NCBI GenBank assembly: GCA_964563085.1
Contig: CAZLVS010000009.1
Location: forward strand, 14,400-78,399
Direction: 5' to 3'
Source: an uncultured Ignavibacteria bacterium
GTDB taxonomy: Bacteria; Zixibacteria; MSB-5A5; UM-FILTER-46-8
Length of the DNA: 64,000 nucleotides
In this document: in pieces, positions 7,556 to 55,316 of the stretch
Layout: each line of letters starts with the position of its first letter
Numbering within the stretch: position 1 is the first letter of the stretch
Made by a program: the position numbers and the translations under genes
Notes under the pieces: model-generated
Database searches by the model: none
What the model saw: only the letters and a program-made list of their open reading frames with translations
What the model was told of the DNA's origin: nothing

Positions 7556-9025
7556 CTACCGCTTTTTCTTAGCTGTTTTCTTCTTGGCTGCTTTTTTCTT
7601 GGCGGCCTTCTTCTTCGCCTTCTTAACCGCTTTCTTGGCGACTTTTTTCACAGCGCTTTTAGCTTTTTTCTTAGCCGCTTTTTGCTTGGTCGCCGCTGCT
7701 TTTTTGGCAGCTTTTGCTCTTGTGAGTTTCACCGGATCGGGGATCGTCCCCAACGGCTTAAGCGCCCGGCTGAACTCCCGGGGATCCGAAATATAGCCGG
7801 TCAAAGCGCTTGCCGCTACCGTAGCCGGAGATGCGAGATAGATATTCCCTTCGGGATTTCCCATACGACCCCTGAAATTACGGTTCTGAGTTGCGATTAC
7901 ATTTTCGCCATCGCCCAGGATTCCGCCATGAACTCCCACGCAGGGTCCGCATCCGGGAGGTAACATCAATGCGCCGAATTCCATCACGGTCTGCAGGTAA
8001 CCATGCTTCAATAACTCCGTTTCCACCTTTTTGGAACCGGGTACAGCTATGACTCGAACGCCAGGCGCAGGCTTTTTGCCCTTGACTATTCCCGCGAATA
8101 TCGCCCAGTCGGACAGGCGGGAGTTGGTGCAGGTGCCCAGAAAAACCTGATTAATCTTAACATTATCGGCAACCGCCTGTTCGATTTCCCGGGTATTATC
8201 CACTGTATGCGGGTAGGAAACGGTTGGTTTCAACTGGCGAACATCAATATCGATGATTTTCTCATAGTCGGCATCCGGATCGGGATAAATCTCCTGCCAC
8301 TTGCTGCCGCGTTTCCATTTCTTGAGGTAATCCCGGGTTATACTATCAGAAGCGATAAGCCCGGCTTTGGCGCCCGCTTCCACCGCCATATTCGACAGGG
8401 TGAACCGCCCTTCCATATCCATATTATCGATTGTCGGTCCGCCGAATTCCAGAGCCTTGTAGGTTGCGCCGTCCGCGCCGATCATACCGATCAAGTGCAG
8501 TATCAAATCCTTGGGATACACGCCTGTAGGGAATTTTCCGGTTACGTTTACTCGGTAAGTTTCAGGCACCCTGAGCCAGGTCTTCCCCAGCGCCATACCG
8601 ATAGCCACATCGGTGGAACCCATTCCGGTGGAAAACGCGCACAGCGCGCCTCCGGTGCAGGTATGCGAATCAGCGCCGATCAAGAGATCGCCCGGATTGA
8701 TATAATCCTCATTGATTACCGTGTGGCAGATACCGTTGCCGACATCTGAAAGATGCGCGCCGGTTTTGTCGGCGAACTGGCGTAATGTCATGTGGTCATT
8801 CGCCAGCTCCTTGCGCGATGCCGGAGCGGAATGGTCTAAAAACAGGACGGTTTTATCCGGATGAGCGACTTTCTCCAGGTTAAGTTTCTGAAGCTGTTTA
8901 ACCGCCAGCGGACCGGTGCCGTCCTGCACCAGTGCGGCGGTCACGTTAGCGATTACTATTTCGCCGGCGGATACTTCCTTACCGGCATTCATGCCAATTA
9001 TTATTTCAGCAAGGGTTTTACCCAT
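7556..9025 (-). CDS. leuC: 3-isopropylmalate dehydratase/homoaconitase large subunit (copy 1) with C-terminal histone H1-like tail
   Basis: LDH, GICH, GADSHT, LGTCTNSR and PGCGPC cluster ligands, TQNRNFRGRMG; last 53 aa are K/A-rich. Confidence 0.93.
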   Translation of the reverse strand: MGKTLAEIIIGMNAGKEVSAGEIVIANVTAALVQDGTGPLAVKQLQKLNLEKVAHPDKTVLFLDHSAPASRKELANDHMTLRQFADKTGAHLSDVGNGICHTVINEDYINPGDLLIGADSHTCTGGALCAFSTGMGSTDVAIGMALGKTWLRVPETYRVNVTGKFPTGVYPKDLILHLIGMIGADGATYKALEFGGPTIDNMDMEGRFTLSNMAVEAGAKAGLIASDSITRDYLKKWKRGSKWQEIYPDPDADYEKIIDIDVRQLKPTVSYPHTVDNTREIEQAVADNVKINQVFLGTCTNSRLSDWAIFAGIVKGKKPAPGVRVIAVPGSKKVETELLKHGYLQTVMEFGALMLPPGCGPCVGVHGGILGDGENVIATQNRNFRGRMGNPEGNIYLASPATVAASALTGYISDPREFSRALKPLGTIPDPVKLTRAKAAKKAAATKQKAAKKKAKSAVKKVAKKAVKKAKKKAAKKKAAKKKTAKKKR

Positions 9026-9312
9026 ATCGATACATCCTCCTTAGTGCATTAATTAATTGGTCAATATATATTTGAGGTTATATGCGGTCAAGAATAATTC
9101 GGTATCGGGCGGAAATAGGTAACTGCATATCGTTTTAGGGACTATTCGTTAATCGTTATAACCTTTATAAACATGGCATTTTGAACATTAGCAATATGGA
9201 ACGCCTAAAATCCTATAAGAAGTAGATAATCAATATCGGCTCTGAAAACAACGGGCTGTTCAGATGCTCAATCAGATGTAAAAAACAGTTAAATTTTTAT
9301 GCGAAAGCCGTT

Positions 9313-9330
9313 TCGTGAAAAAGTTCTCAA
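9313..9330. promoter_or_regulatory. Rex/CRP-like operator (distal)
   Basis: TCGTGAA-AAAG-TTCTCAA versus Rex consensus TTGTGAA-N4-TTCACAA (12/14). Confidence 0.5.
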
Positions 9331-9388
9331 AGTTGTTGTTTATAAAGATGATTTTTCATATATTCGAAAAGTCATTTTTTGCTTGATG

Positions 9389-9406
9389 TTGTGAAAATAT
9401 TCACTA
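9389..9406. promoter_or_regulatory. Rex/CRP-like operator (proximal) upstream of hdrC-like operon
   Basis: TTGTGAA-AATA-TTCACTA (13/14 to Rex consensus; also fits TGTGA-N6-TCACA). Confidence 0.6.
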
Positions 9407-9487
9407 CATTAGACGATGATGTAAACAGGAATTGTTCGCAATAATAGGGCCGGACATTCCTGACCAGCGAAGAAGTAGTATACATAG

Positions 9488-9617
9488 CGTCAGCCCTGGA
9501 GGGCTGACCGCCGGAATTGAAGCGGTAGGACCGGACATTCTTGTCTGACGGATAACGTATTGAAACCGCGAAGATTTTACATAAAACTACCGAAGGACAA
9601 GCCTTCGGCTGCGGATA
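9488..9617. repeat. REP-like hairpins in the leader of the hdr operon
   Basis: GTCAGCCCTGGAGGGCTGAC; GTAGGACCGGACATTCTTGTC; CCGAAGGACAAGCCTTCGG (same hairpin as 35236, 53576, 56478). Confidence 0.7.
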
Positions 9618-9654
9618 AGAAGAAATGTAACTGATATATGAAATCGAGGAAGAA

Positions 9655-10062
9655 ATGTCTCTTTTAATCGCATTACGCACTATTGATGATGAAATGCGGC
9701 GAAAAATTAAGGAGATCAGCGGTCAGGATATCTCCAAATGCTTCCAATGCGGAACATGTTCGGCATCCTGCCCCATGGAGGAACATCTCCAGGCTCCGCC
9801 TCGCCGTATCATGACTTTGATTCAATTCGGTCAATCGGAAGCTCTCGATTTACTCAACACCCCCTGGGTGTGCGCCTCCTGCCACAACTGCATGGTTCGC
9901 TGCCCCCGCGGGATCGATATCACCAAGGTGATGGAAGCTATCCGGTTGTTAAGACTCCGCCAGAATGTTAACCAGATCGAACCGTCTAACCTGCAGCCTG
10001 AGGAGGTCGTTGAACTCCCTCAGATAGCAATGGTTTCCGGTTTCCGCAAAATGACATCGTGA
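9655..10062 (+). CDS. hdrC: Heterodisulfide reductase subunit C-like 2x[4Fe-4S] protein
   Basis: CFQCGTCSASCP and CASCHNCMVRCP. Confidence 0.85.
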   Translation: MSLLIALRTIDDEMRRKIKEISGQDISKCFQCGTCSASCPMEEHLQAPPRRIMTLIQFGQSEALDLLNTPWVCASCHNCMVRCPRGIDITKVMEAIRLLRLRQNVNQIEPSNLQPEEVVELPQIAMVSGFRKMTS

Positions 10063-10069
10063 GGTGAGT

Positions 10070-10960
10070 ATGAAGTTAGGTTATTATCCGGGATGTACAT
10101 TAAAAACAAAAGCGAAAAATCTCGAGGATTCGGCATTAGCCAGCCTGGAGGTTTTAGGGATCGAGGCGACCGAACTGGAACGATGGAATTGCTGCGGCGC
10201 GGTTTATTCGCTGGCTGATGACGATTTGATCCATATCGTAGCTCCGGTTCGCGACCTTATCCGGGCGCAGCAGCAGGGGTATGACACAGTTGTCACACTT
10301 TGTTCGATGTGTTACAACACATTAGCTCGCGCCAACGAGTTGATGAAAAACGATGAGGAAAAACGCAATACTTTGAACGACTTCATGGACGAGGAACCGG
10401 ATTATTTCGGAGATGTGAAAGTGGTTCATTTCCTCAATTTCCTTGAAGACGAAGTCGGATGGGATAAGGTTAAGGAAGCGGTCAAAGTTCCTCTTAACGG
10501 ACTGAAGGTCGCTCCGTATTACGGCTGCACTTTACTGCGTCCCAAGGAGGTCGGTATCGATCATCCCGACAATCCTGTCATGTTCCATAAGTTCCTGAAT
10601 GCATTGGGCGCCGAGGCGGTCGATTTCGACAGCGCTACCGAATGCTGCAGCGCGTATCAGTCGCTGGCTCATCCTGATATCGCATTGAAAGTTTCCTACG
10701 ATATCCTTCAGGATGCAGCCGGAAAAGGCGCGGAAGCGTTGGCTTTAGCCTGCCCTCTTTGCGATTATAACCTGGGACGCAAGCAGGGGAAGGTGCTGGA
10801 GATGTTCGAAAGCGCTAACGAAGTCCCGATTTATTATTTCACGCAATTGATGGCGGTGGCGTTCGGCGTACCGATCGACAAAAACCATTTTGAATTAAAC
10901 CGGGAGAGTTCGGTAGAACTGCTTAAATCAAAAAATCTGCTGAGCGAAGTTCCCGCATAA
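10070..10960 (+). CDS. hdrB: Heterodisulfide reductase subunit B-like CCG-domain protein
   Basis: YYPGC...WNCCG...CSMC and YYGC...ECCS...CPLC; GAGGTG RBS. Confidence 0.88.
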   Translation: MKLGYYPGCTLKTKAKNLEDSALASLEVLGIEATELERWNCCGAVYSLADDDLIHIVAPVRDLIRAQQQGYDTVVTLCSMCYNTLARANELMKNDEEKRNTLNDFMDEEPDYFGDVKVVHFLNFLEDEVGWDKVKEAVKVPLNGLKVAPYYGCTLLRPKEVGIDHPDNPVMFHKFLNALGAEAVDFDSATECCSAYQSLAHPDIALKVSYDILQDAAGKGAEALALACPLCDYNLGRKQGKVLEMFESANEVPIYYFTQLMAVAFGVPIDKNHFELNRESSVELLKSKNLLSEVPA

Positions 10961-11001
10961 AGTCTGAAATATGTAATATTTGATGATAAGAAGAGGTGAA
11001 T

Positions 11002-11832
11002 ATGAGTAAGAGACCATCAGTTGGAAGCACCGGTGAGGATCGGATTTTTAGAAGATCTATCGCAGGAGGAGGAGCTGAGGGAGGAGCCGCCGAAGTGCCG
11101 GTTGAGGAAATGGAAGCCAAGATGATTCCGATTTACATCATGGGCAAACGATACGAAGTTCCGGAAACATTAACCATAATGAAGGCTATGGAATACGCCG
11201 GATTCCAGTATATCCGCGGATGCGGATGCCGCGGCGGCGTTTGCGGCGCCTGCGCAACTGTTTATCGCAAACCCGGCGATTATAAAATCTACACCGGACT
11301 CGCCTGCCAGACTGTTGTCGAGCCGGAGATGTATTTAACGCAATTACCCTTCTACCCGGCGAACCGCGCCATTTATGAATTTAACGAGTTAACCGGAAGA
11401 CCGGAAGAAGTCCATGCTCTTTATCCGGAGCTGTTCCGATGTGTCGCCTGCAACGCCTGCACCAAGGTCTGCCCGATGGATGTGGAAGTCATGGATTATA
11501 TCGCCGCGGTGAAGCGGGGCGATATGAAGGCAGCGGCGGAGATTTCTTTCGACTGTATTCAATGCGGACTCTGCGCCAGCAGATGTATGGGCGAACTCCC
11601 GCAGTATCATATCGGACAGCTTGTCCGCAGGATCAACGGAGCGTTCCTAACTCCGCGCGCCGAACATCTGGCAACCATGGTCGCCAATATCGAAGCCGGG
11701 CGTTACAAAGAATGCCTGGAAAAAGTTAAGGGGCAGGATGCCGATACGCTGAGGAATATTTATCAGGAGCGCGAACTGGAACCTGCCGTTGCGGGTGAAG
11801 ACTGGACTCCGCAGAGTAAAGAGTGTTTATAA
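11002..11832 (+). CDS. Fumarate reductase/succinate dehydrogenase-type Fe-S subunit ([2Fe-2S] + 2x[4Fe-4S])
   Basis: CRGGVCGAC...LAC, CVACNACTKVCP, CIQCGLCASRC; GAGGTG RBS. Confidence 0.82.
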   Translation: MSKRPSVGSTGEDRIFRRSIAGGGAEGGAAEVPVEEMEAKMIPIYIMGKRYEVPETLTIMKAMEYAGFQYIRGCGCRGGVCGACATVYRKPGDYKIYTGLACQTVVEPEMYLTQLPFYPANRAIYEFNELTGRPEEVHALYPELFRCVACNACTKVCPMDVEVMDYIAAVKRGDMKAAAEISFDCIQCGLCASRCMGELPQYHIGQLVRRINGAFLTPRAEHLATMVANIEAGRYKECLEKVKGQDADTLRNIYQERELEPAVAGEDWTPQSKECL

Positions 11833-11867
11833 TCTTAAAGAAAAGAAATTAGTGTGAGGTTTTATAT

Positions 11868-13538
11868 ATGCCGTACCCAGAGGAACTAAAACAGCTTATT
11901 AAGATAGTGGAAAGCACCCGCGAAGAGAGGGTTGCCCGCAAGAGAAAAAACGAGGAAGTCCCTTTCCTGAGTCTCGATGAACGGAAAGAAATGCTTGCTA
12001 ACCATCCCGATGTGAAAGAAGAGGGAAGACGGGAACTGAAGGTCGGTCCCAGCAAAGGATATCGTATCGCCCACGAGGTGTGCGACCTGCTGGAGGCGAA
12101 AAGCCGCGTGGATCCCAATGCGGTTGACCTTTCCAATCCCGATATCGAAACCGATGTGCTGATAATCGGCGGGGGCGGAGCGGGAACTGCGGCGGCGATT
12201 ATGGCTCAGGAACAAGGCGCCAAGGTCACAATCGCCACTAAGTTGCGTCACGGCGACGCCAACACCATGATGGCCGAGGGCGGAATTCAGTCCGCTACCA
12301 AGGGGCATAAGGATTCGCCGTATTACCATTACCTCGACGTGATGGGCGGCGGTCATTTCGTTAACGATCCCGACCTGGTGGAAACACTGGTAACCAAAGC
12401 TCCCAACGCCATCAAGTGGCTGGAAAGCCTGGGGTGCAATTTCTCCAAGTTCCCGGATGGGACTCTTAAGACTATCCATGGAGGCGGGACTTCCCGTAAG
12501 CGTATGCATTATGCCGCCGATATCACCGGCGCGGAAATGATGCGCACCGTCCGCGATGAAGCTCGCAACCGCGTTAAAGATATCCAGGTTGTGGAATTCT
12601 CCCCGGCGGTGGAGCTTCTGCTCAATGAACATGGCAATTCCGCCGGCGCAGTATTGTACAATCTTGACACCGAGGAATACGTGGTAGCCAAGGCGAAATC
12701 TGTAGTGATGGCTACCGGCGGCTGCGGTCGTTTGCATATCCAGGGGTTTATGACCACCAACCATTACGGCGCAACCGCTGACGGTATCGTACTCGGTTAT
12801 CGCGCCGGAGTGAAGATCTGTTTCCTGCATACCGTGCAGTATCACCCCACCGGTATCGTATTCCCGGAGCAGGCGGAAGGAATTTTGATTACCGAGAAAT
12901 TCCGCGGTTCGGGCGCTAACTTAGTCAACGTTGATGGCCAGCAGTTCGTTAACGAACGCGAACCGCGCGATGTGGAAGCCGCCGCTATCATCAAGGAATG
13001 CGTCGGGCAGGGCAAGGGAGTTCCCACTCCCACCGGTAAGCTGGGTATCTGGCTTGATTCGCCGATGATCGATATGCTGGAAGGCGAAGGAACCGTGGAA
13101 CGTGAATTCCCCGGAAAATTCATCCTGTTCAAGCGCTACGGAATCGATATCTCCAAGGAACCGATGTTGATCTATCCCACGCTGCATTATCAGAACGGCG
13201 GACTGGAATTCAAGAACACCGGCGAGACAGCGGTACCGGGTCTGTTCGCAGCCGGAGAGGTCGGCGGAGGTATCCACGGCGAAAATCGTTTGATGGGTAA
13301 TTCGCTTCTGGATATTATGGTTTTCGGAAGGATCGCGGGCGAAACCGCCGCCAGGTACGCTAAGGAAAAAGCGAACGGCAGCAAGCTCTCGCTGGAGCAT
13401 GTTGAGAAATACAACAAAGAGATAGAAGAAGCGGGAGTCGGCGACGGACGCGTAGCCCCGATGATACTCCCCAACTACACCGATGAACGTATCCGCCAAA
13501 GACAACTCACCGCCCATTACGTGGGAACCATAAGGTAG
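11868..13538 (+). CDS. FrdA/SdhA/TfrA-family flavoprotein
   Basis: GGGGAG FAD motif, MAEGG, HGGGTS, QYHPTG, ITE..RG, EPRD, HYQNGG, HGENRLMGNSL. Confidence 0.88.
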   Translation: MPYPEELKQLIKIVESTREERVARKRKNEEVPFLSLDERKEMLANHPDVKEEGRRELKVGPSKGYRIAHEVCDLLEAKSRVDPNAVDLSNPDIETDVLIIGGGGAGTAAAIMAQEQGAKVTIATKLRHGDANTMMAEGGIQSATKGHKDSPYYHYLDVMGGGHFVNDPDLVETLVTKAPNAIKWLESLGCNFSKFPDGTLKTIHGGGTSRKRMHYAADITGAEMMRTVRDEARNRVKDIQVVEFSPAVELLLNEHGNSAGAVLYNLDTEEYVVAKAKSVVMATGGCGRLHIQGFMTTNHYGATADGIVLGYRAGVKICFLHTVQYHPTGIVFPEQAEGILITEKFRGSGANLVNVDGQQFVNEREPRDVEAAAIIKECVGQGKGVPTPTGKLGIWLDSPMIDMLEGEGTVEREFPGKFILFKRYGIDISKEPMLIYPTLHYQNGGLEFKNTGETAVPGLFAAGEVGGGIHGENRLMGNSLLDIMVFGRIAGETAARYAKEKANGSKLSLEHVEKYNKEIEEAGVGDGRVAPMILPNYTDERIRQRQLTAHYVGTIR

Positions 13539-13561
13539 AATTCAATTACCTCTTTCAATAT

Positions 13562-13592
13562 AAAACCGCCGCAATGTTGCGGCGGTTTTTTT
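13562..13592 (+). terminator. Rho-independent terminator (probably bidirectional)
   Basis: AAAACCGCCGCAA-TG-TTGCGGCGGTTTT perfect stem followed by T-run, after the flavoprotein stop. Confidence 0.9.
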
Positions 13593-13607
13593 ATTATGAA
13601 TAGCGCT

Positions 13608-14054: not shown

Positions 14055-14082
14055 GCTTCGGCAGGGCTTTGACCTATTTTCA

Positions 14083-27459: not shown

Positions 27460-27852
27460 TTTGAACCTCATAAATAATTCGTTTGTAGATGGGTGAGATA
27501 GGGGCAACCGCTTGCTTATTGTCTAATACCTCCTTTCCTTGATAGGTTGATGAAACGGATTTATCGATTCACAACAAATAAAAAATCGATGTAATGAATG
27601 TTTATTCAATAATATAAGCGAGTCCGCTATTTGCATGATTAGCAGCCGATAACCGGGATGCTCGGCAGCAAGGACCGGTGACATCCATCTGGCGTAGAAA
27701 AACGGAGAAATACATTTTTATATAAACTAAATTACAAAATAAATGTTAAATCGTCAAGCAATAAATACCCGAGACTTAATAACTAACTTACTGCTTTTTT
27801 TACCAAATTTGTATTTGCTTTTAATTACTTACTCAACTTATTTTTATAGGTT

Positions 27853-40946: not shown

Positions 40947-40949
40947 CTG

Positions 40950-40975: not shown

Positions 40976-40977
40976 GG

Positions 40978-44459: not shown

Positions 44460-45809
44460 ATGTCAGAAGGTGAAATAGTCAAAATTCTCTCGTCTAAGTT
44501 ATTAAACGGCGAAATCCCGCCGTGGAAAGTTGAATCCCTTATATCAGAGGAACATGGAATAAATGCCCCCGAAAACTTTATCCTTGCTGCTAAAGCGCGA
44601 AGAGATTTCCTCGAGAAGAGGACCGGTTTAAAGTTCGAATATCTCTCATTACCGGACAAACCGTATCTGATAAATTATGCCTGTCGAAAATGCAATATAG
44701 ATTATCAACTCGCCGCTTACGATGAGAAGACTATCTGCTCGCTATGCGGCGATATGCCGGCGGTAAAGAAACCGGAGAAAATGTTTCCGTTTACAGCTAA
44801 CTATATCGGCGGTATCGATGATTATTTCTCCTATTGCGGGATGTTCGATGTGCATGGTGATATTGAGAAGCAATTCACCGGTATTCTTCAGTACGGCACC
44901 GGATTGGGTCCGATCGGCGTAACCCGCGGCGCATTTTTTATCAATCGTTCCGGCGGCGCGGAAGTGACCGTTTCCGAGTCCGCCCGAGCCTGCCGTAATC
45001 TCGGCTACATTTTCGCTGATGAAAGTGCCAGGAAGAATGCGATGCGGATCGTGGAGGAATTTCTACCTTATGTTCGTAAGGAGATGAACGGAGTTTTGCA
45101 GAAATGGGGAGGAGAGGTTTCGTTTGTCGAATTACTTCCGGTGGAGGATATGGGCAAACTCTATTTGTTCATCGATTTTACCGCTGAGTTCAAACTCTTC
45201 CGAGGGCATGGCGCTATCAGCAAAGCGACCGGTTTTGCCAAAAAGCTCATCGATGATAAATTCCACTCTGAAGGTTTTGAGTACCAGCTCAGCGGAATTA
45301 CACAGGGCTACGATGGAGATCTCAAACCTTCACTTAGGAATAAACGCGGTCGGTACGGTTTAGCCAGAGTTTCCGTGCCCAAAAACGAAATTGAGAAACT
45401 CACCGGTAAACCGGCTCAGCATTTGATTGATTTCGTGCAGATGGATGCCAAAGGCGCCGAAAAACTGGGGTGGTTTCATCATACCGGAATGGGCGGCGAA
45501 ATAATCGCCGGTTTTTATAAAGCAACCAAAGTTAATCCTCATGCCCCGCTTGTCTCGTCAACCCAGGAGATTTTCTGCCTCCATGAAGGGAAAAACATCG
45601 TTTATGGAGTGGAGCTTCCCAACGTAGAAGTCGGAACGATATCCTCTGCAGAAGGAGCAATCCCGCCGCTGGGCAGAGAAATGATGAGGTTTATGGGGAT
45701 AACAAATGCGCGTGAATACGCCGCCTGTTTATCTGCAATCGTACTTGCGGGGGAATTCAATCTTTCGGTGGAAATAGTACGGGAAAATCTCTATAAACCT
45801 TCCCCTTAA
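44460..45809 (+). CDS. Divergent class I HMG-CoA reductase homologue lacking catalytic motifs, with Zn-ribbon insertion
   Basis: Collinear with archaeal HMGR from the N-terminus (KLLNGEI, ARRDFLEKRTG) to AVLAGE-like end (IVLAGEFNL); canonical motifs substituted; CRKC-x14-CSLC insert. Confidence 0.75.
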   Translation: MSEGEIVKILSSKLLNGEIPPWKVESLISEEHGINAPENFILAAKARRDFLEKRTGLKFEYLSLPDKPYLINYACRKCNIDYQLAAYDEKTICSLCGDMPAVKKPEKMFPFTANYIGGIDDYFSYCGMFDVHGDIEKQFTGILQYGTGLGPIGVTRGAFFINRSGGAEVTVSESARACRNLGYIFADESARKNAMRIVEEFLPYVRKEMNGVLQKWGGEVSFVELLPVEDMGKLYLFIDFTAEFKLFRGHGAISKATGFAKKLIDDKFHSEGFEYQLSGITQGYDGDLKPSLRNKRGRYGLARVSVPKNEIEKLTGKPAQHLIDFVQMDAKGAEKLGWFHHTGMGGEIIAGFYKATKVNPHAPLVSSTQEIFCLHEGKNIVYGVELPNVEVGTISSAEGAIPPLGREMMRFMGITNAREYAACLSAIVLAGEFNLSVEIVRENLYKPSP

Positions 45810-48677: not shown

Positions 48678-48678
48678 G

Positions 48679-50142: not shown

Positions 50143-50156
50143 TGCGTTATAAAAAA

Positions 50157-50654
50157 CTACTCTATCCCCAATCGTTTGCGCGTATATGGAATCAGTCCGC
50201 CGGCTTCGATTATACCCTGTGCCGATTCCGGCAGCGGCGGTATGGTAAACTCGCCTTTGGAAGTTGTTATAATGCCGTTAGCAAGATCAATCTTGATCTC
50301 GTCGCCGCTTTCCACAGCGTCTACCGCTTCTGCCGACGTAATTGGCGGTAATCCGAAATTCAGGCAGTTACGGAAGTAAAGCCGAGAAAATGATTTTGCG
50401 ATGATAGCTCCTACTCCGGCGTATTTCAGGCACGATGCCGCCTGCTCCCGGGATGAACCGCAGCCGAAATTCTTACCGCCGACCACCACATCGCCTTTGC
50501 TAACTTTACTTGAGAACTCAGGATCGAGATCCTCCATTGCATGTTTGGCGATCTCTTCGGGGTCGCTGACTGTGTAAGTATATTTTCCCGGGAAGATCAC
50601 ATCGGTGTTAATATCATCGCCGTATTTGAAAACTTTACCTTCTATTTTTGACAT
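50157..50654 (-). CDS. leuD: 3-isopropylmalate dehydratase/homoaconitase small subunit (copy 2)
   Basis: AAGGAG RBS; GDDINTDVIFPGKY, NFGCGSSREQA, AKSFSRLYFRN. Confidence 0.9.
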   Translation of the reverse strand: MSKIEGKVFKYGDDINTDVIFPGKYTYTVSDPEEIAKHAMEDLDPEFSSKVSKGDVVVGGKNFGCGSSREQAASCLKYAGVGAIIAKSFSRLYFRNCLNFGLPPITSAEAVDAVESGDEIKIDLANGIITTSKGEFTIPPLPESAQGIIEAGGLIPYTRKRLGIE

Positions 50655-50778
50655 TTTGGCTCCTTGGTCCGTTACATTTCGAAAGTTATCTTCACCAGTC
50701 ATTGCCCCGACTTCATTGGAAAATCGAAGCAATCCATATTCACATCGTAGATACTATGGTATAAAAGAGTAAAAAAGA

Positions 50779-50989
50779 GAAGGCTGCCATTTTAAATTAA
50801 GGAAAAAAATATTAACCACGTGGTCGCGATAGCGCCACAAATTTAATGGAGGCAGCCTTCATGAGAAAGATACAGGGTTACATACAGAAAGGCAAGCGGA
50901 TTTTTATCGGATTGGAAGCAGCCAAGCGGAATTGGAAACTATGCGTGCGCAGCGGCAAAATGACGGTGCATGAGGCAACATTGCCGGCC
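50779..50989 (+). mobile_element. IS110-family remnant: structured non-coding end plus first 43 codons of transposase
   Basis: ATG 50861 gives MRKIQGYIQKGKRIFIGLEAAKRNWKLCVRSGKMTVHEATLPA, resembling the RuvC-like N-terminus of IS110 transposases (recalled pattern); truncated by a REP cassette. Confidence 0.65.
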
Positions 50990-50990
50990 A

Positions 50991-51544
50991 GAGGGTTTAT
51001 TCCCCTGACACGGATTCTTCATCCCGCGGAATGCGGGATGAAGACGGCGCGTGTTATGTCATTGTGGTCGGTGAACGCCCCCGTCCGCCGACTGCATGGC
51101 ATGCTCAAATTTATTTGGGCATGTTTTGATTATATATGGTTACACATTGCTAGGGCTTCGCCTTGACCATGCCACCCTCCCGCATTTCATCCGTAGGTCG
51201 GGTTCCGAGCGAACGAAGTGATTGAGAAACCCGACACGCTTGCTGCACTGGTCATTGCGAGCGAAGCGAAGCAATCCGGCTCCATGTTTGTGCGTGACGG
51301 ACATCCCCGTTTGACGCCTTCGGTCAGACGGGGGCGTCTGCCCGCACCTGAATGTGCCTTCCCCCGATTTCATCAGGGTCACCCGCATATAATATTCGGA
51401 GCAGGTCGGGTTCCGAGCGAACGAAGTGATGGAGAAGCCCGGCACCAGTAAGCGCTCACGAGATTGTTTCAAAATCCAAATTTAAGGCATTGCTTGAGTA
51501 CAGGAGATTGCCGCGCCCTCGGAAAACCTCGGCCTCGCAATGAC
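50991..51544. repeat. Large mosaic REP cassette between leuC and leuD (copy 2)
   Basis: Contains modules shared with 6480-6770, 7371-7545, 13608-14054, 18018-18314 and 25790-26020. Confidence 0.87.
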
Positions 51545-51546
51545 CC

Positions 51547-52800
51547 TTATAAATACTCCCTCGGATCGGTGATCTCGCCTTTGAGAGCCGATGCCGCAAC
51601 CGATGCCGGTGATGCCAGATATATCTCAGCTTCCCGGCTGCCCATTCTGCCTTTGAAATTCCGATTAGCGGTTGAAATGACCACCTCATCCGGCGCGGGC
51701 ACACCCTGATGAGCGCCCAGACATGGTCCGCATCCGGAGTTGGTTATTATTCCCCCGGCTTCCATTATAGTCTGAGCGTACCCTGCTTTCATAGCGTCCA
51801 TATAGACTTTCCTGGATGCGGGTATGCAGATCATGCGGCAATCGGGATGTATTTTCCGTCCTTTCAAGATGGACGCAACCACCTGCCAATCCGACAGCCG
51901 CGAACCGTTACAAGTTCCCAAAAACGCCTGCTGAACTTTGGCGCCTACAACTTCACTTATCGGTTTGACGTTGTCAACCGTATGGGGACATGCAACTTGG
52001 GGTTCAAGCTCGGTTAGATCTATCTCGATATCTTTAGCATACTCGGCGTCGCTGTCAGGAAATACCGGCTGATAAGTCTGATTGCCCCGCAATGCCAGAT
52101 ACGAGAACGTTTTCTCATCAGGTTTCATATAACCGTTTTTAGCGCCCATCTCCACCGCAAGATTGGTAAACACCACACGATAATCCATAGAGAGTGAATC
52201 AAGATAAGGTCCTGAAAACTCTATCGAACGATAGATCCCCCCGTCAGCGCCAATCCTGCCTACTACGTGAAGCGCAACGTCTTTGGCAAATATTCCCTTG
52301 GGCGGCATTCCCAAAAGCAGCGCCCGCATCGATTCCGGGACACGGAACCATATCTTGCCCGTAGCCATTATCACAGCCATCTCCGAACGGCCGATTCCGG
52401 TGGCAAAGGCTCCGAAAGCCCCGTGATGGGTGGTATGCGAATCGCTGCCAACCACAACCATACCGGGCAGAACCATTCCCTCCTCAACCATCACCTGGTG
52501 GCAGATTCCGGCATTAACATCATAAAACTTTGTTATTCCCTGGTTTTTAGCAAATATCCTCACCGTCTTATGATTTTGCGCAAACTTCTCGTTGGCGGCA
52601 GGGGTGCAGTGATCCAGTATTATGACATGCAGATTCGGATCATAAACCTTGTCGACACCAATATCGTAAAAAGTTTTCGATATCGCGGCGGTGTTATCGT
52701 GCGACATGGCGAGGTCAGGCGTAATTTCTACGATCTCACCCGGCGCCACATCCTTGCCGACCCTCTTTGATAATATTTTCTCAGCAAAAGTAAGTCCCAT
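51547..52800 (-). CDS. leuC: 3-isopropylmalate dehydratase/homoaconitase large subunit (copy 2)
   Basis: SHDN, LDH, GICHQ, GSDSHT, LGTCNGSR, SGCGPC, TANRNFKGRMG; ends DPREYL without a tail. Confidence 0.92.
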   Translation of the reverse strand: MGLTFAEKILSKRVGKDVAPGEIVEITPDLAMSHDNTAAISKTFYDIGVDKVYDPNLHVIILDHCTPAANEKFAQNHKTVRIFAKNQGITKFYDVNAGICHQVMVEEGMVLPGMVVVGSDSHTTHHGAFGAFATGIGRSEMAVIMATGKIWFRVPESMRALLLGMPPKGIFAKDVALHVVGRIGADGGIYRSIEFSGPYLDSLSMDYRVVFTNLAVEMGAKNGYMKPDEKTFSYLALRGNQTYQPVFPDSDAEYAKDIEIDLTELEPQVACPHTVDNVKPISEVVGAKVQQAFLGTCNGSRLSDWQVVASILKGRKIHPDCRMICIPASRKVYMDAMKAGYAQTIMEAGGIITNSGCGPCLGAHQGVPAPDEVVISTANRNFKGRMGSREAEIYLASPASVAASALKGEITDPREYL

Positions 52801-53175
52801 GTTCGCCTCTATTTTTGTTTCAAATTTGTCAAGTAATCAAAATAAAGAAATCGTGTTAAGTGTCAACTATTAAAATTGAAACAATGACAGGAATCAAATT
52901 TCAATGCTATTTGCGATTAATGTTTAGCAATACTGTATATTATCTCAGAATCTTTGTAAAATTTGTTGACATGGACCAGTATGGAAATTAAACTACAAAA
53001 ATCAAAATAATTCAGGAAGTGATAACCCTAACTATGGGAGCTGGAATAGTCTTTGAATAGAAGTTACCTACGGTGATTAAATTCGCAGTGCGGTAACATT
53101 TCAGGCTTCCTGCTAAATGAGGGATAAAAATAGCGCCTGGCAAAGGGAAACTATTTCATTTCTGTGGAGGTAAAC

Positions 53176-53544
53176 ATGTATTCAAAAATAACCAGAATGA
53201 TACCGGGTATTTTAATCTGTGCGTTGTTTATTCACGGCGCGGCAGCTTTCGCCTGGGTAGGCGTGAAGGGAAAGGTAATCTATGCAAATTGCCAGTATAC
53301 GCCCCGTGATATGGTATCATTGTATTCCGGCGATAAGAAAACCTTAATCGCCTCAGGTCTTGTAGGTGGTTCTCTACCTCATACATACAATTTAATGTGC
53401 AGCCGGGACGGCGGCTGGTACTGGATTGAGTTCCGATCTCACGGTCGCGGAAGGGCAATATGGACGCATGTGTATTTGGATAATAATACTTTCGCCACCC
53501 AAAATATACATGTTGCGCACCATAATAAATCCGGAAAGAGATAA
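53176..53544 (+). CDS. Small secreted protein of unknown function
   Basis: GGAGGT RBS; signal peptide ending AAAFA; 122 aa. Confidence 0.65.
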   Translation: MYSKITRMIPGILICALFIHGAAAFAWVGVKGKVIYANCQYTPRDMVSLYSGDKKTLIASGLVGGSLPHTYNLMCSRDGGWYWIEFRSHGRGRAIWTHVYLDNNTFATQNIHVAHHNKSGKR

Positions 53545-53545
53545 T

Positions 53546-53610
53546 CCGGATAATTCATAAACAGCGTTAGTTGGTAGCCGAAGGCTTGTCCTTCGGGATT
53601 CATGAATAAT
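53546..53610. repeat. Short copy of MITE/PATE-like element
   Basis: CCGGATAATTCATA...GTAGCCGAAGGCTTGTCCTTCGGGA...ATGAATAAT. Confidence 0.72.
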
Positions 53611-53747
53611 CAAGGTTAGTAATGACGGGTATTAATCCGCCCTACTTCTCTGCCGTATATTGTGTTGCGAGGATTACAGTTCGGGGTCTTTAATTTCATT
53701 CCGCTTTTTGGTCAATCTGCTATCAGTTATGGTATTTAATGGATTAA

Positions 53748-55316
53748 CTATAACCGGGGGGCTTTTATGCAGCCGCCGAGCGCGGTCGCGGCTGCGACCT
53801 GATGATTGGCAAGGTAAACCCGATGAGGATAATCATCGGGGAATATGGTCAAAGCCGATGGATCGGTCACCATCACCCTCCCCATGTTACTATCTGTTTG
53901 AGGAAACACGAAATCTGTAAAATCGGGCGCCGGTGGTAAAAAGGAGCAGCCGGCGACCACCAATTTCCTGAATGTCCCTTCCTCTTCCAGTCGAAGCAGT
54001 ACATCCTTGGTTGCGGGACGGATCAGGACACGGATCCTGGGGGGGAGGTTTTGCTTTTTCAGGATATTGTCAACTTCCAAAATGTCATCATACATCCCTC
54101 CCGAATAATACCCGATTATTATAGTATCCACCCTCTCGTCTTCGTTGTCATTGAGCGATTCGATCGCTATTTTACCATCACGCTGAATTCCCAGCAAAGG
54201 ATCAATCTCCAAAACCGATTGGCTTATTGAATATGAATACACACAACCGACATCGGATTTCAAGGTATTAAATTTCATTACCGCCTTTTTTCTAAGCATT
54301 TTCGCTGTTTTTTTATCGCACTCCATGCAGACCGAAACGCAATCGAATAACCTGGCGAGGTAACATAGCACGAACCGTTTATCAAGAGGCAGGCTTTCAA
54401 CTGTATCGCCGCTTATTTCGATACTATGCGAACTGAAATCTTTCATTCTGGTTTTACCTTTGAGGAACAAAACGATATCGAGCGGCTGGATTCCTCTTAA
54501 CGGCGTATCCATCAGCACTATTCTGGATACATTGAACCTGGGAATTTTCACCTGGTCATTGCTGACGGAATCAATCAAACCGGTACCGTCCACGCGCAAT
54601 CCCAATGCCCCTACAGCCCCCGCGCTTATAACCGCCGGATCGCTGCCGAGTATCAGCTCGCCCGGTAGTATATAACCATTGTGTACCGCATCCAGTATCT
54701 GTCCGCCCTGCGAAGGATTGGATATATTCCACTTTTCACATAGCGAAGCCAGCTTTTCCTTATACTCTTCATTTATGGAATTGCCCGGATACAGCGCATA
54801 TATTTCGTTTGTATTTTTCTGTTTCGTGACCGATTTCGATTTGGAAAGCTCCAGAAAGCCGGAATCGAGATTGCTTATGAATATGCGATCCGGTTTTAAC
54901 GCCAACCGGTTTTCGCTTGAGTCATCGGCTGCCTTGTTCTGTAGAATCTTATCGATAATATTGCGACGCGTATCTTTCCCCATGAACTCCTTGATGCCGG
55001 GAAGCGGAAGCTGCATCTGTTCCAGTTTCAACCTCTCCGGTTTCTCGGCTATCCCATACTTCTTACGCCAATAACGGAATGCATTGCCGCTAATCCCCAG
55101 CGCCTCGCCGCCTAATTTATCATTACCGAAACGTTCCCACACCTCGGTGATTTGTGATTGGCTGTATTTCGGTTCGGAATAAGCGGGAATGCCCTTTTTA
55201 CGCCTCCAATAAGCGATAAGGTATGGTTCCACCCCTCCTAATACTTCCCCTATTTTCTTATCAGTCTTATATCGTCTCTGAAGTTCTAACAGCTCTTTTT
55301 TGGATGGCATCTTCAT
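53748..55316 (-). CDS. Tandem-HTH protein fused to a catalytically dead LeuC/aconitase large-subunit fold
   Basis: Two ~40-aa HTH-like repeats ending YWRRKKGI and YWRKKYGI; C-terminal part collinear with LeuC but DSHT>DPAV, GTC>GYY, GCGPC>APDF. Confidence 0.8.
   Translation of the reverse strand: MKMPSKKELLELQRRYKTDKKIGEVLGGVEPYLIAYWRRKKGIPAYSEPKYSQSQITEVWERFGNDKLGGEALGISGNAFRYWRKKYGIAEKPERLKLEQMQLPLPGIKEFMGKDTRRNIIDKILQNKAADDSSENRLALKPDRIFISNLDSGFLELSKSKSVTKQKNTNEIYALYPGNSINEEYKEKLASLCEKWNISNPSQGGQILDAVHNGYILPGELILGSDPAVISAGAVGALGLRVDGTGLIDSVSNDQVKIPRFNVSRIVLMDTPLRGIQPLDIVLFLKGKTRMKDFSSHSIEISGDTVESLPLDKRFVLCYLARLFDCVSVCMECDKKTAKMLRKKAVMKFNTLKSDVGCVYSYSISQSVLEIDPLLGIQRDGKIAIESLNDNEDERVDTIIIGYYSGGMYDDILEVDNILKKQNLPPRIRVLIRPATKDVLLRLEEEGTFRKLVVAGCSFLPPAPDFTDFVFPQTDSNMGRVMVTDPSALTIFPDDYPHRVYLANHQVAAATALGGCIKAPRL

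What the first reader, a model, noticed from the sequence alone, without database searches (positions are those of the whole stretch)
7556..55316. Recurrent coupling of the LeuC/aconitase scaffold to nucleic-acid-binding appendages
Of three LeuC-family genes in the window, one is plain, one is active with an H1-like tail, and one is inactive with tandem HTHs. Two independent nucleic-acid-binding additions to the same scaffold suggest this lineage uses the aconitase fold to relay metabolic or Fe-S status to the chromosome. Together with the dead HMGR this hints at wider enzyme repurposing.
Basis: inference. Interest (0 to 1): 0.65.

Follow-up and report, generated by a model that had tools for sequence, protein, structure and literature searches.

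The report
Aconitase-fold proteins with DNA-binding-type add-ons
A Zixibacteria genome carries three aconitase-family genes: an ordinary leucine enzyme, a citric-acid-cycle aconitase with a lysine-rich tail, and a catalytically dead copy fused to a double helix-turn-helix module; both add-ons are conserved far beyond this strain, but they look like two unrelated stories, not one shared "relay to the chromosome".

Summary
The window comes from a Zixibacteria genome in a microbial mat. It encodes three aconitase-superfamily large subunits.

(1) 7556-9025: all cluster ligands intact, plus a 70-aa K/A tail.
(2) 51547-52800: plain.
(3) 53748-55316: none of the 3 Cys ligands and 1 of 16 catalytic/cluster residues kept, with an N-terminal tandem HTH.

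Neither appendage is strain-specific or an artefact.

Gene 1 is not LeuC. It is the large subunit of a two-subunit TCA-cycle aconitase; in relatives it sits between citrate synthase and isocitrate dehydrogenase. Basic tails occur in 111/120 homologue clusters of this clade and in 0/119 of the plain clade. Succinyl-CoA synthetase alpha carries a similar tail in two relatives, so the tail tracks the pathway, not the fold.

Gene 3 belongs to a family found in 218 species genomes, mostly Zixibacteria. An Ap4A-phosphorylase-like HIT gene lies directly upstream in 83/83 loci. Thirteen of 81 members are intact enzymes, followed by LeuD wherever enough downstream sequence exists. The rest are degenerate, yet the HTH is nearly invariant (dN/dS 0.012; body 0.13).

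Most likely gene 3 is an enzyme-derived DNA-binding regulator. DNA binding by the tail is unproven. Fe-S sensing is excluded for the window's copy.

The parts
7772..9025 (-). Catalytic body (aa 1-418) of the 'LeuC1' large subunit. It is aconitase/homoaconitase-type, with all three Fe-S cysteines intact and Gln at the aconitase Gln72-equivalent position.
   Evidence: Pfam PF00330 at 332.7 bits. NCBIfam subfamily models pass, but the LeuC equivalogs do not (TIGR02083 460 < 610.65; TIGR00170 234 < 560). 15/16 key residues are kept. Q occurs in 120/120 of this clade against H in 120/120 of the LeuC2 clade. Relatives lie between citrate synthase and isocitrate dehydrogenase.
7556..7771 (-). Polycationic low-complexity C-terminal tail (aa 419-489 plus stop): a short linker, then K/A-rich 'AKKKAAKK' runs.
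   Evidence: Translation. 45% K+R and 26% A. Imperfect 15-nt periodicity, 3.7 copies at 80%. Identical in 4 metagenome runs. Basic tails in 111/120 homologue clusters, 14-261 aa long.
6848..7348 (-). LeuD1: the small subunit partnering LeuC1. Its substrate-recognition loop GRLFHLRSN carries an Arg.
   Evidence: Pfam Aconitase_C; best NCBIfam model HacB2_Meth at 191 bits. The loop GR(Y/L)FHLRSN is conserved in relatives inside TCA clusters.
7384..7509 (-). Two copies of a 39-nt REP-like hairpin element in the LeuC1-LeuD1 spacer.
   Evidence: Exact copies at 7384-7422 and 7471-7509, with 0 expected by chance. Logan contigs break here.
9655..13538 (+). Divergent neighbours of LeuC1: a Fer4 protein, a CCG (HdrB/SdhE-like) protein, a 2Fe-2S/4Fe-4S protein and a fumarate reductase/succinate dehydrogenase flavoprotein. 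This is TCA-type context.
   Evidence: Pfam and NCBIfam. The same CCG plus Fer4_8 pair flanks the TCA clusters in L085 and L088.
51547..52800 (-). LeuC2: an ordinary isopropylmalate-isomerase-type large subunit with no appendage.
   Evidence: Pfam 326 bits and 16/16 key residues. The nearest 119 homologue clusters are plain 416-445 aa proteins and none has a basic tail.
50157..50654 (-). LeuD2 small subunit. The probable start is MSKIEG at 50654; the ORF is open to 50732. It has a hydrophobic loop GKYTYTVS and sits about 890 bp from LeuC2, separated by repeat/IS debris.
55002..55316 (-). Tandem helix-turn-helix module of LeuC3 (aa 1-105): two three-helix bundles whose recognition helices end in YWRRKKGI and YWRKKYGI.
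   Evidence: AF2 helices 6-16/19-25/31-41 and 53-63/66-73/77-86, pLDDT about 88-95. 26 columns are invariant across 12 diverse N-terminal sequences, 17 of them across 42 full-length members. The profile finds proteins built of HTH_23 arrays. dN/dS 0.012 against the L004 ortholog.
53748..54959 (-). Catalytically dead aconitase-fold body of LeuC3 (aa 120-522).
   Evidence: Pfam PF00330 at 69.2 bits. Foldseek best hit is the MJ0499 IPM isomerase large subunit 4kp1, E 2e-33, TM 0.86. 1/16 catalytic/cluster residues kept and no Cys ligand. dN/dS 0.13.
55313..55825 (-). HIT-family gene, Ap4A-phosphorylase-like, with an intact HxHxHxx motif. Its stop overlaps the LeuC3 start (ATGA).
   Evidence: Pfam HIT. 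PDB 3ano Ap4A phosphorylase at E 9e-33; NCBIfam ATP adenylyltransferase 134.7 bits, below the cutoff of 290. A HIT gene lies directly upstream of the HTH-LeuC gene in 83/83 loci.
55826..55989 (.). Divergent intergenic region between the HIT operon and a universal-stress-protein gene, with sigma-70-like hexamers. This is the candidate control region.
   Evidence: Promoter-like sites at 55899-55871 and 55872-55843 on the minus strand. No operator motif is conserved across the phylum.
44460..45809 (+). Highly divergent HMG-CoA-reductase-like protein with an N-terminal CxxC...CxxC segment. This is the side claim of the finding.

Best explanation
The window holds three functionally different aconitase-superfamily systems.

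(A) LeuC2/LeuD2 is the ordinary isopropylmalate isomerase.

(B) 'LeuC1'/LeuD1 is a two-subunit TCA-cycle aconitase that converts citrate to isocitrate. Its large subunit carries a disordered polycationic tail as a clade-wide trait. The tail most likely tethers the enzyme non-specifically to a cellular polyanion: nucleoid DNA or RNA first, polyphosphate or acidic membrane as alternatives. In some Zixibacteria succinyl-CoA synthetase carries a similar tail, so the tail is best read as a localisation or co-assembly device for TCA enzymes, not a sequence-specific signal to the chromosome.

(C) LeuC3 belongs to a Zixibacteria-wide family that arose once, when a bipartite HTH_23-type DNA-binding module was fused to the N-terminus of an isopropylmalate-isomerase-type large subunit. 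The gene is always co-transcribed with, and usually translationally coupled to, an upstream Ap4A-phosphorylase-like HIT gene. In a minority clade the protein is still a complete Fe-S enzyme with its own LeuD, a 'trigger-enzyme' state. In most lineages, including the window's, the catalytic and cluster residues are gone while the HTH stays almost invariant and the body stays under purifying selection. The window's LeuC3 is therefore most likely a DNA-binding regulator. Its pseudo-aconitase body would serve as a ligand- or partner-binding (sensor) domain, possibly acting together with the HIT protein.

Shown: architecture, conservation, synteny, loss of catalytic residues, purifying selection.
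Inferred: DNA binding, the regulatory role, the HIT partnership, and what the tail binds.
For: Identity and fold:
- Pfam and NCBIfam hits.
- AF2 model pLDDT 86; Foldseek to the MJ0499 IPM isomerase large subunit at E 2e-33.

HTH module:
- Two three-helix bundles.
- Sub-threshold HTH_23/HTH_Tnp_1 hits.
- A profile of the module retrieves 397 representative proteins, among them multi-HTH_23 array proteins that pass Pfam thresholds.

Family-wide conservation:
- 44 clusters; 218 GTDB species genomes, the best 80 mostly labelled Zixibacteria.
- HIT directly upstream in 83/83 loci.
- LeuD, with GSSRE intact, downstream of the intact-enzyme members; degenerate LeuDs next to some degenerate members.

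Degeneration:
- 13/81 members keep 16/16 residues and 67 keep 9 or fewer.
- Mean pairwise identity is 0.75 for the HTH against 0.40 for the body in degenerate members.
- The NJ tree shows a single fusion clade, sister to plain LeuC2-type, with the intact members basal and short-branched.
- dN/dS is 0.012 for the HTH, 0.13 for the body and 0.085 for HIT.

Aconitase assignment of LeuC1:
- Gene order CS-AcnL-AcnS-IDH, or MDH-AcnL-AcnS-...-IDH, with Kor, SucCD and NDK.
- Q against H at the Gln72-equivalent position, 120/120 each.
- An Arg-containing small-subunit loop.

Tail:
- 111/120 against 0/119 clusters.
- A tail also on SucD.
- Reproduced in 4 runs.

Precedents:
- H1-like tails bind DNA and polyP granules (PMC9239181).
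- The HIT protein HINT1 controls the transcription factor MITF through Ap4A (PMC7705103).
Against: - No experimental or expression data exist; no RNA runs were found.
- No operator motif upstream of the HIT operon is conserved across the family.
- The window protein itself does not reach any Pfam HTH threshold.
- Foldseek matches of the isolated module to DNA-binding domains (Mos1 transposase, Fis, NtrC) are not significant; the best is E 0.07.
- Former active-site positions are not more conserved than the rest of the body in the window's subclade (p = 0.13), so there is no positive evidence for a ligand pocket.
- The aconitase assignment of LeuC1 rests on synteny in relatives. In the window itself, and in its closest relative L087, citrate synthase and IDH are not adjacent.
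- The tail could bind membranes: many relatives have amphipathic 33-aa helical repeats before the K-rich end.
- The NJ tree may group the degenerate members partly through long-branch attraction.
Confidence: 0.55

Rival explanations
1. One reading: both appendages bind nucleic acid, and the lineage uses the aconitase fold itself, through its Fe-S cluster or substrate state, to relay metabolic or iron-sulfur status to the chromosome.
For: Both appendages are conserved and of DNA-binding type. Seven degenerate family members still keep all three cluster cysteines while lacking catalytic residues (L011, L019, L030, L036, L051, L062, L079), which would suit a cluster-sensing role in those lineages. 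Aconitases moonlight as RNA- or DNA-associated proteins (IRP1, bacterial AcnA/B, yeast Aco1; own knowledge. IRP1-RNA structures appear among the Foldseek hits).
Against: The window's LeuC3 and most family members have no cluster ligands. The K tail is also on succinyl-CoA synthetase, a non-aconitase fold, and never on the IPMI-type paralog. The two additions sit in different clades with different partners and contexts.
Confidence: 0.12
2. The K-rich tail has nothing to do with nucleic acids. It would anchor or cluster TCA enzymes on the acidic inner membrane or on polyphosphate granules, or act electrostatically to concentrate polyanionic substrates such as citrate, succinate and nucleotides, or to build a TCA metabolon.
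For: The tail is specific to the TCA aconitase and is shared with SucD in relatives. Long versions contain amphipathic apolipoprotein-like helical repeats. The H1-like AlgP tail localises to polyP granules (PMC9239181). A membrane-associated Sdh/Frd-type complex is encoded next door.
Against: The window's own tail lacks the helical repeat part and is pure K/A low complexity, the composition of known DNA-binding H1-like tails. Only two relatives show the SucD tail. No direct data exist either way.
Confidence: 0.3
3. The HTH-LeuC protein is not a transcription factor. It would be a DNA- or RNA-tethered partner or regulator of the HIT (Ap4A phosphorylase-like) enzyme, or a substrate-presenting scaffold for it, with the pseudo-aconitase body replacing LeuD contacts by HIT contacts.
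For: HIT-HTH-LeuC adjacency is invariant, usually with overlapping stop and start codons, whatever the catalytic state and whether or not LeuD is present. HIT is under similar purifying selection. The HINT1-MITF precedent applies (PMC7705103).
Against: No interaction evidence exists. Operon membership alone is weak. Intact-type members clearly pair with LeuD.
Confidence: 0.2
4. LeuC3 is a decaying relic (pseudogene in progress) of a duplicated leuC, and the N-terminal extension is annotation noise.
For: All catalytic residues are lost. It lies next to a functional LeuC2.
Against: The 522-aa ORF is intact. The ortholog is 90% identical with dN/dS 0.13 for the body and 0.012 for the HTH. The family is present in 218 species genomes with near-invariant N-terminal residues. 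AF2 gives a confident fold. LeuC2 is not its recent duplicate: 20% identity, a different clade.
Confidence: 0.02

Closest known systems
Trigger enzymes / bifunctional enzyme-repressors (PutA, BirA, NadR; concept of Commichau & Stuelke; own knowledge)
   Same: A metabolic enzyme and a DNA-binding domain sit in one polypeptide. The intact-type family members (13/81) keep every catalytic residue and have a LeuD partner.
   Different: The enzyme is an Fe-S (de)hydratase large subunit, and the DNA-binding part is a tandem HTH_23-type module. Most members, including the window's, have become pseudoenzymes. The gene is always paired with a HIT gene. No target genes are known.
IRP1 / aconitase moonlighting (cytosolic aconitase-IRP1, bacterial AcnA/AcnB/CitB RNA binding, yeast Aco1 in mtDNA nucleoids; own knowledge; IRP1 structures 3snp and 2b3x among the fold hits)
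   Same: Aconitase-superfamily proteins that associate with nucleic acids and link metabolism or iron to gene expression.
   Different: In IRP1 the nucleic acid is bound by the opened catalytic cleft after cluster loss, with no appended domain. Here binding would come from appended modules: an HTH, or a K-rich tail. LeuC3 has no cluster ligands at all.
Bacterial histone-H1-like K/A/P-rich domains: AlgP (PMC9239181), Chlamydia Hc2 (PMC2848022), Streptomyces DdbA (PMC3643593), Anaeromyxobacter CarD (own knowledge)
   Same: Low-complexity lysine/alanine-rich segments of variable length, appended to another functional domain. The repeat-driven length variation matches the 14-261 aa range seen here.
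   Different: Here the carrier is a central-metabolism enzyme (TCA aconitase, and SucD in relatives), not a nucleoid protein or transcription factor. There is no sequence homology, only shared composition. The binding partner is untested.
Methanocaldococcus jannaschii IPM isomerase / homoaconitase large subunits MJ0499 and MJ1003 (PDB 4kp1, 4kp2)
   Same: Best structural matches of the LeuC3 body (E 2e-33 and 7e-30; TM 0.86 and 0.83). The same two-subunit organisation applies to LeuC1/D1 and LeuC2/D2.
   Different: LeuC3 lacks the cluster and the catalytic residues and carries the HTH extension. LeuC1 carries the basic tail and sits in TCA context in relatives.
HINT1-MITF-Ap4A switch (PMC7705103)
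   Same: A HIT-family nucleotide-binding protein functionally coupled to a DNA-binding transcription factor.
   Different: The known case is eukaryotic and the proteins are unrelated to HTH-LeuC. Here the only evidence is invariant operon pairing.
Bipartite (paired-like) HTH DNA-binding domains of Tc1/mariner transposases (Mos1, PDB 5hoo)
   Same: Two consecutive three-helix HTH units joined by a short linker. This is the top, though non-significant, Foldseek match of the isolated module (E 0.07, prob 0.9).
   Different: No transposase domain is present. The similarity is weak, and the relative orientation of the two units is not comparable.

Membership tests
Aconitase superfamily, large subunit (Pfam PF00330) | Significant match to the family profile and the three-domain alpha/beta fold | tested here: met
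   LeuC1 332.7, LeuC2 326 and LeuC3 69.2 bits against a cutoff of 28.7. The LeuC3 model matches 4kp1 at TM 0.86.
Aconitase superfamily, large subunit (catalytically competent) | Three Cys ligands of the [4Fe-4S] cluster plus the Asp/His/Ser/Asn/Arg catalytic and substrate residues | tested here: not met
   This verdict is for LeuC3: 1/16 positions kept and no Cys. LeuC1 (15/16; the one difference is Gln for His at the Gln72-equivalent) and LeuC2 (16/16) meet the feature.
3-isopropylmalate dehydratase large subunit LeuC (NCBIfam equivalogs TIGR02083 / TIGR00170) | Score above the equivalog cutoff | tested here: not met
   LeuC1 scores 460 against 610.65 and 234 against 560.25. LeuC2 scores 462 against 610.65. 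Both pass only subfamily-level models (NF001614, TIGR01343, TIGR02086).
TCA-cycle aconitase (functional assignment of LeuC1/LeuD1) | Genomic embedding between citrate synthase and isocitrate dehydrogenase, with tricarboxylate-type specificity residues | tested here: inconclusive
   Met in relatives L084, L085, L086 and L088. Gln at the Gln72-equivalent in 120/120, and Arg in the small-subunit loop. Not met in the window itself or in L087, where only Sdh/Frd-type genes are adjacent. The NCBIfam aconitate hydratase equivalog NF005558 scores 373 against a cutoff of 612.
Helix-turn-helix, HTH_23/HTH_28 (homeodomain-like) DNA-binding domains | Profile match above the Pfam gathering score | tested here: inconclusive
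   In the window protein only HTH_Tnp_1 is found, at 15.5 against 24.1. Relatives score HTH_23 at 21.6 and 20.9 against 24.6. One relative (P0013) carries a precomputed PF13384 hit. The module profile retrieves proteins whose repeats pass HTH_23 thresholds.
Helix-turn-helix DNA-binding domains | Tri-helical bundle with a helix-turn-helix and a basic recognition helix | tested here: met
   AF2 gives two bundles, H6-16/H19-25/H31-41 and H53-63/H66-73/H77-86, with pLDDT mostly above 88. The third helices contain the invariant W-R-R-K and W-R-x-x-Y.
Helix-turn-helix DNA-binding domains | Demonstrated DNA binding or an identifiable operator | not testable with these tools
   No conserved motif was found upstream of the HIT operon. 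No experimental data exist.
Histone H1-like / AlgP-type polycationic tails | Low-complexity Lys/Ala(/Pro)-rich composition with a strong net positive charge | tested here: met
   45% K+R and 26% A over 74 residues, with a weak 15-nt periodicity.
Histone H1-like / AlgP-type polycationic tails | Binding to DNA (or polyP) and nucleoid association | not testable with these tools
   This is only an analogy with AlgP (PMC9239181) and other H1-like domains.
Trigger enzymes (enzyme that also regulates transcription) | Catalytic activity retained together with a DNA-binding domain | tested here: not met
   The window's LeuC3 is catalytically dead. The feature is met at sequence level in 13/81 family members that also have an intact LeuD.
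IRP1-type aconitase / RNA-binding switch | A cluster-ligand cysteines present, so that cluster loss can gate nucleic-acid binding | tested here: not met
   LeuC3 has Y, P and T at the three Cys positions.
HMG-CoA reductase (side claim, 44460-45809) | Equivalog-level match and the catalytic Glu/Lys/Asp/His set | tested here: inconclusive
   Pfam 43.6 bits (above 27), but NCBIfam TIGR00533 scores 47.7 against 441.8. Lys (ISK) and Asp (D-L-K-P) align. The C-terminal His and GTVGGGT are absent. Glu is ambiguous by one position (the reference sequence was recalled from memory).
Anti-phage defence systems (PADLOC) | Match of the HIT/HTH-LeuC pair to a known defence system | tested here: not met
   Only a generic HIT-family hit (ThsC, 44.5 bits) for the HIT protein, and nothing for LeuC3.

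The most novel reading that the evidence does not exclude
Two linked readings remain possible. First, Zixibacteria may possess an undescribed signalling module: an Ap4A-metabolising HIT enzyme paired with a tandem-HTH pseudo-aconitase, descended from a still-extant bifunctional Fe-S enzyme/regulator, that couples branched-chain amino-acid, Fe-S or alarmone status to transcription. Second, and separately, polycationic tails may physically organise TCA-cycle enzymes (aconitase, succinyl-CoA synthetase) on the nucleoid or on polyphosphate. That would be a prokaryotic counterpart of aconitase residing in mitochondrial nucleoids.
Probability: 0.15. Interest if true: 0.8.

Novelty: new variant of a known kind. 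Interest (0 to 1): 0.6.

Why it matters
If the HTH-aconitase-fold family binds DNA, it would be a rare natural series. Within one phylum it would capture every stage from a working Fe-S enzyme with a DNA-binding domain, through forms that keep only the cluster ligands, to a pure pseudoenzyme regulator. That makes it a direct test bed for how enzymes turn into transcription factors.

The invariant pairing with an Ap4A-phosphorylase-like HIT gene offers a testable link between dinucleotide alarmones and transcription in bacteria.

The lysine-rich tails on TCA enzymes raise a separate, experimentally simple question: are central-metabolism enzymes positioned on the nucleoid, on polyphosphate or on the membrane in this uncultured group?

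On the practical side, 'LeuC' annotations in these genomes are misleading. One copy is the TCA aconitase and one is not an enzyme at all.

Tried and rejected
1. Operator search. I ran k-mer enrichment and visual alignment of 200 nt upstream of the HIT gene in 80 loci, and an inverted-repeat scan of window 55800-56010. Only promoter-like A/T hexamers and a weak palindrome appeared; no conserved motif.
2. New ligand site. Former catalytic positions in the window's subclade are not significantly more conserved than other body columns (mean 3.94 against 3.45 of 6; permutation p = 0.13).
3. Foldseek of the isolated HTH module against the PDB. No match reached E <= 0.001. The top hits are DNA-binding HTH proteins (Mos1, Fis, NtrC), but they are not significant.
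4. Expression evidence. No RNA runs contain the locus; the only DNA runs listed were four from one microbial-mat study.
5. Defence-system hypothesis. PADLOC gives only a generic HIT hit.
6. 'LeuC3 is a recent duplicate of the adjacent LeuC2'. Rejected: 20% identity and different clades, and LeuC2's nearest relatives are all plain.
7. 'K tails are a proteome-wide habit'. Rejected for the sampled 1.14 Mb.
8. dN/dS on the tail against L087. Synonymous sites are saturated (dS 2.6, or undefined), so the result is uninformative.
9. Literature. Searches for HTH-aconitase/LeuC fusions, Zixibacteria aconitase and heterodimeric aconitase found nothing relevant. The library is limited, so absence is weak evidence.
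10. Taxon names for short-tailed homologues through cluster look-up. No names were returned.

Full report
**What is in the window.** The window is from a Zixibacteria genome. Best hits are named Zixibacteria/Zixiibacteriota, and a 90%-identical ortholog lies in MAG WJIR01. The reads come from microbial-mat metagenomes.

- LeuC1 (7556-9025, 489 aa) and LeuC2 (51547-52800, 417 aa) match Pfam Aconitase at 333 and 326 bits.
- LeuC3 (53748-55316, 522 aa) matches at 69 bits.
- At 16 catalytic and cluster-ligand positions, LeuC2 has 16/16, LeuC1 15/16 and LeuC3 1/16. All three cysteines in LeuC3 are replaced.
- LeuC1 ends in a 70-residue tail, 45% K+R and 26% A.
- LeuC3 begins with about 105 residues made of two similar units ending in YWRRKKGI and YWRKKYGI.

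**Are the appendages artefacts or strain-specific?** No. The LeuC1 ORF, tail included, is reproduced without a single difference in contigs from four independent sequencing runs.

Among the 120 best homologue clusters of LeuC1, 111 carry a net-basic C-terminal extension. Lengths run from 14 to 261 aa, median 130. None of 119 homologue clusters of LeuC2 does. The tails differ in form: 18-25 residue K/R stubs; pure K/A tails of 70-110 residues in the closest relatives; and 130-265 residue versions in many Zixibacteria, where 33-residue helical repeats precede the K-rich end.

The HTH-bearing form is a family of 44 clusters in the protein collection. It is encoded in 218 species-representative genomes of GTDB. 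Of the best 80, 49 are labelled Zixibacteria, 19 Ignavibacteria(les), 2 Calditrichota and the rest unclassified. The labels of near-identical sequences disagree with one another, so they probably reflect MAG naming, not real phylum spread.

**What LeuC1 really is.** It fails the LeuC equivalog thresholds. In relatives it sits in textbook TCA clusters.

- L085 and L088: 2-oxoglutarate:ferredoxin oxidoreductase, NDK, citrate synthase, large subunit, small subunit, isocitrate dehydrogenase.
- L084 and L086: succinyl-CoA synthetase, Kor, NDK, LarA-family gene, malate dehydrogenase, large subunit, small subunit, two LiaF-like genes, isocitrate dehydrogenase.

All 120 members of this clade have Gln where all 120 LeuC2-type proteins have His. 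From my own knowledge of pig aconitase, this is the Gln72 position that contacts the substrate's extra carboxylate. The partner small subunit carries a conserved Arg-containing recognition loop, GR(Y/L)FHLRSN. LeuD2, and the LeuDs that follow intact HTH-LeuC genes, have hydrophobic loops instead. That this loop sets specificity is stated in PMC7308503, citing Jeyakanthan 2010.

In the window the pair lies next to fumarate-reductase/succinate-dehydrogenase-type genes, but not next to citrate synthase or IDH. The same holds for its closest relative L087. I therefore read LeuC1/LeuD1 as the two-subunit TCA aconitase, with moderate confidence.

**What the tail implies.** In the window LeuC1 is the only real gene with such a segment. 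In 1.14 Mb of related loci (about 1,480 long ORFs), at least 12 Lys in 30 residues occurs only in three kinds of protein:

- this aconitase;
- the C-terminus of succinyl-CoA synthetase alpha in two Zixibacteria (L084, L086);
- one small Cys-rich protein.

The tail is thus a trait of TCA enzymes, not of the aconitase fold. Its composition matches bacterial H1-like domains that bind DNA. The best-studied one, AlgP, also localises to polyphosphate granules (PMC9239181). The helical repeats in long versions would also suit a membrane or scaffold role. I commit to non-specific tethering to a cellular polyanion, nucleic acid being the most likely. A sequence-specific 'relay to the chromosome' is not indicated.

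**What LeuC3 really is.** AF2 (pLDDT 86) predicts two three-helix bundles, a short helix, a disordered linker (residues 102-113) and a confident aconitase-type body. The best structural match of that body is the M. jannaschii IPM isomerase large subunit (4kp1, E 2e-33, TM 0.86).

The window's N-terminal module does not itself reach a Pfam threshold. A profile built from the family's modules finds 397 representative proteins. The strongest are LeuC fusions and fragments. The next tier consists of proteins made of 2-8 HTH_23 repeats that pass Pfam thresholds. Foldseek of the isolated module gives only non-significant hits, all to DNA-binding HTH proteins. The tandem-HTH reading is therefore well supported. 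DNA binding itself is an inference.

**Family anatomy and history.** Across 42 members the N-terminal module is the most conserved part, with 17 invariant columns. A census of 83 loci gave four results.

- A HIT-family gene lies immediately upstream in every locus, usually with overlapping stop and start codons. It is closest to Ap4A phosphorylase (PDB 3ano, E 9e-33).
- 13 of 81 full-length members keep all 16 catalytic/cluster residues. In all ten of these with enough downstream sequence, a LeuD with an intact GSSRE motif follows.
- 67 members keep 9 or fewer of the 16 positions, in many different patterns. Seven of the members that have lost some of the 16 residues still keep the three cysteines.
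- Some degenerate members are followed by a LeuD that has itself lost GSSRE.

Mean pairwise identity in degenerate members is 0.75 for the HTH module and 0.40 for the body.

A neighbour-joining tree places all HTH-bearing proteins in one clade, sister to the plain LeuC2 type. The intact members form a short-branched basal group, and the window's subclade sits on the longest branch.

Between the window and its 90%-identical ortholog, dN/dS is 0.012 for the HTH, 0.13 for the dead body and 0.085 for HIT. The body is thus maintained by selection, not decaying.

LeuC2 is only 20% identical to LeuC3 and belongs to the plain clade. It is not a recent duplicate. It also has its own promoter-like site.

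**Mechanism proposed.** One ancestral fusion created an IPM-isomerase large subunit with a bipartite HTH, co-expressed with a HIT enzyme. This is a 'trigger enzyme' state, still present in one clade. In most Zixibacteria catalysis was lost and the protein persists as a DNA-binding factor. Its aconitase-fold body would provide ligand or partner binding: to (pseudo)LeuD, to the HIT protein, or to a metabolite.

The HINT1-MITF-Ap4A switch is a precedent for a HIT protein gating a transcription factor (PMC7705103), but that is an analogy only. I found no conserved operator and no sign of a newly conserved pocket. The target and the signal remain unknown.

**The side claim.** The HMGR-like protein (44460-45809) is a very divergent homologue. 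In an alignment to a human HMGCR sequence recalled from memory, it keeps the Lys and Asp motifs but lacks the C-terminal His and the glycine-rich motif. 'Dead' is plausible but not shown. It adds little to a 'wider repurposing' argument.

**Verdict.** The two appendages are real, ancient and independent, but they belong to different systems:

- a tailed TCA aconitase, whose tail is shared with another TCA enzyme;
- an HTH-fused pseudo-isopropylmalate-isomerase locked to a HIT gene.

Fe-S sensing is excluded for the window's copy. I found no description of either feature in the searchable literature. I classify the finding as a new variant of known kinds: enzyme-derived regulators and pseudoenzymes, and H1-like polycationic tails. 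It is of moderate to good interest.

Noticed in passing
window 7384-7422 and 7471-7509; also 50733-51546: REP-like hairpin elements. Two exact 39-nt copies, GTCGGGTTCCGAGCGAGTGCAACGAGCGAGAAACCCGAC, separate LeuC1 from LeuD1. Related elements and what looks by eye like an IS110-type transposase N-terminal fragment (50846-51166, +) fill the roughly 890-bp gap between LeuC2 and LeuD2. Public contigs break exactly at these repeats.
   Followed up: partly
L084 814-1419; L086 367-1398: In two Zixibacteria relatives the succinyl-CoA synthetase alpha subunit ends in a K-rich tail of about 55 aa, like the aconitase tail. It lies in the same TCA gene cluster.
   Followed up: partly
L086 14123-14566: A 147-aa protein with a K-rich N-terminus (MPVKKKAKKPARKKAVKK...) and a Cys-rich C-terminus. 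It may be a small nucleoid- or zinc-binding protein.
   Followed up: no
Homologues P0053-P0154 of LeuC1 (e.g. P0119, P0154; L086 7001-9016): Many Zixibacteria aconitase large subunits carry 1-6 copies of a 33-aa helical repeat (GPKAKEAS.KVERMAKKA.AEYGPKARKAAKDTAAVI) between the enzyme and the K-rich end. The only Pfam resemblance is a weak one to apolipoprotein (E 0.024).
   Followed up: partly
L009 9470-10075, L012 2855-3361, L055 9723-10223, L062 4624-5190, L037 9709-10122: Degenerate LeuD-like small subunits with the GSSRE motif lost persist directly downstream of degenerate HTH-LeuC genes. This suggests that a non-catalytic heterodimer is retained.
   Followed up: partly
Proteins P0292, P0312, P0316, P0318, P0343, P0379: Proteins of 270-1070 aa built from 4-8 matched copies of the same HTH_23-type unit as the LeuC3 module. 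One (P0318) also has TFIIB repeats and a TFIIB zinc ribbon.
   Followed up: no
window 44460-45809: The HMGR-like protein has an N-terminal CxxC...CxxC (zinc-ribbon-like) segment not found in canonical HMG-CoA reductases. A calcineurin-like phosphoesterase gene lies downstream on the opposite strand.
   Followed up: partly
window 53164-53544 (+): A small ORF of 126 aa with a signal-peptide-like N-terminus and no Pfam match lies on the opposite strand between LeuC3 and LeuC2.
   Followed up: no
window 3131-6412, 26038-27507, 40978-44241, 56606-58549: Several large secreted proteins and proteases end in the same C-terminal motif (...NYPNPFNP...SGIYFYRL...K). By eye this resembles a type IX secretion sorting domain, consistent with an FCB-group organism. 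I did not run these window ORFs against Pfam; the Por_Secre_tail hits I saw were on neighbouring genes in related loci.
   Followed up: no
window 7572-7603 versus other contigs of runs X1, X2, X4: Short 26-nt matches to the tail-coding DNA occur in unrelated contigs of the same metagenomes, including a 42-kb contig at 70x depth. Other mat organisms therefore also encode similar K-rich repeats.
   Followed up: no
window 9655-13538: A four-gene cluster: Fer4, CCG/HdrB-like, 2Fe-2S + 4Fe-4S, and an FAD flavoprotein. It resembles thiol:fumarate reductase or the CCG-anchored (SdhE-type) fumarate reductases more than a classical SdhABCD.
   Followed up: partly
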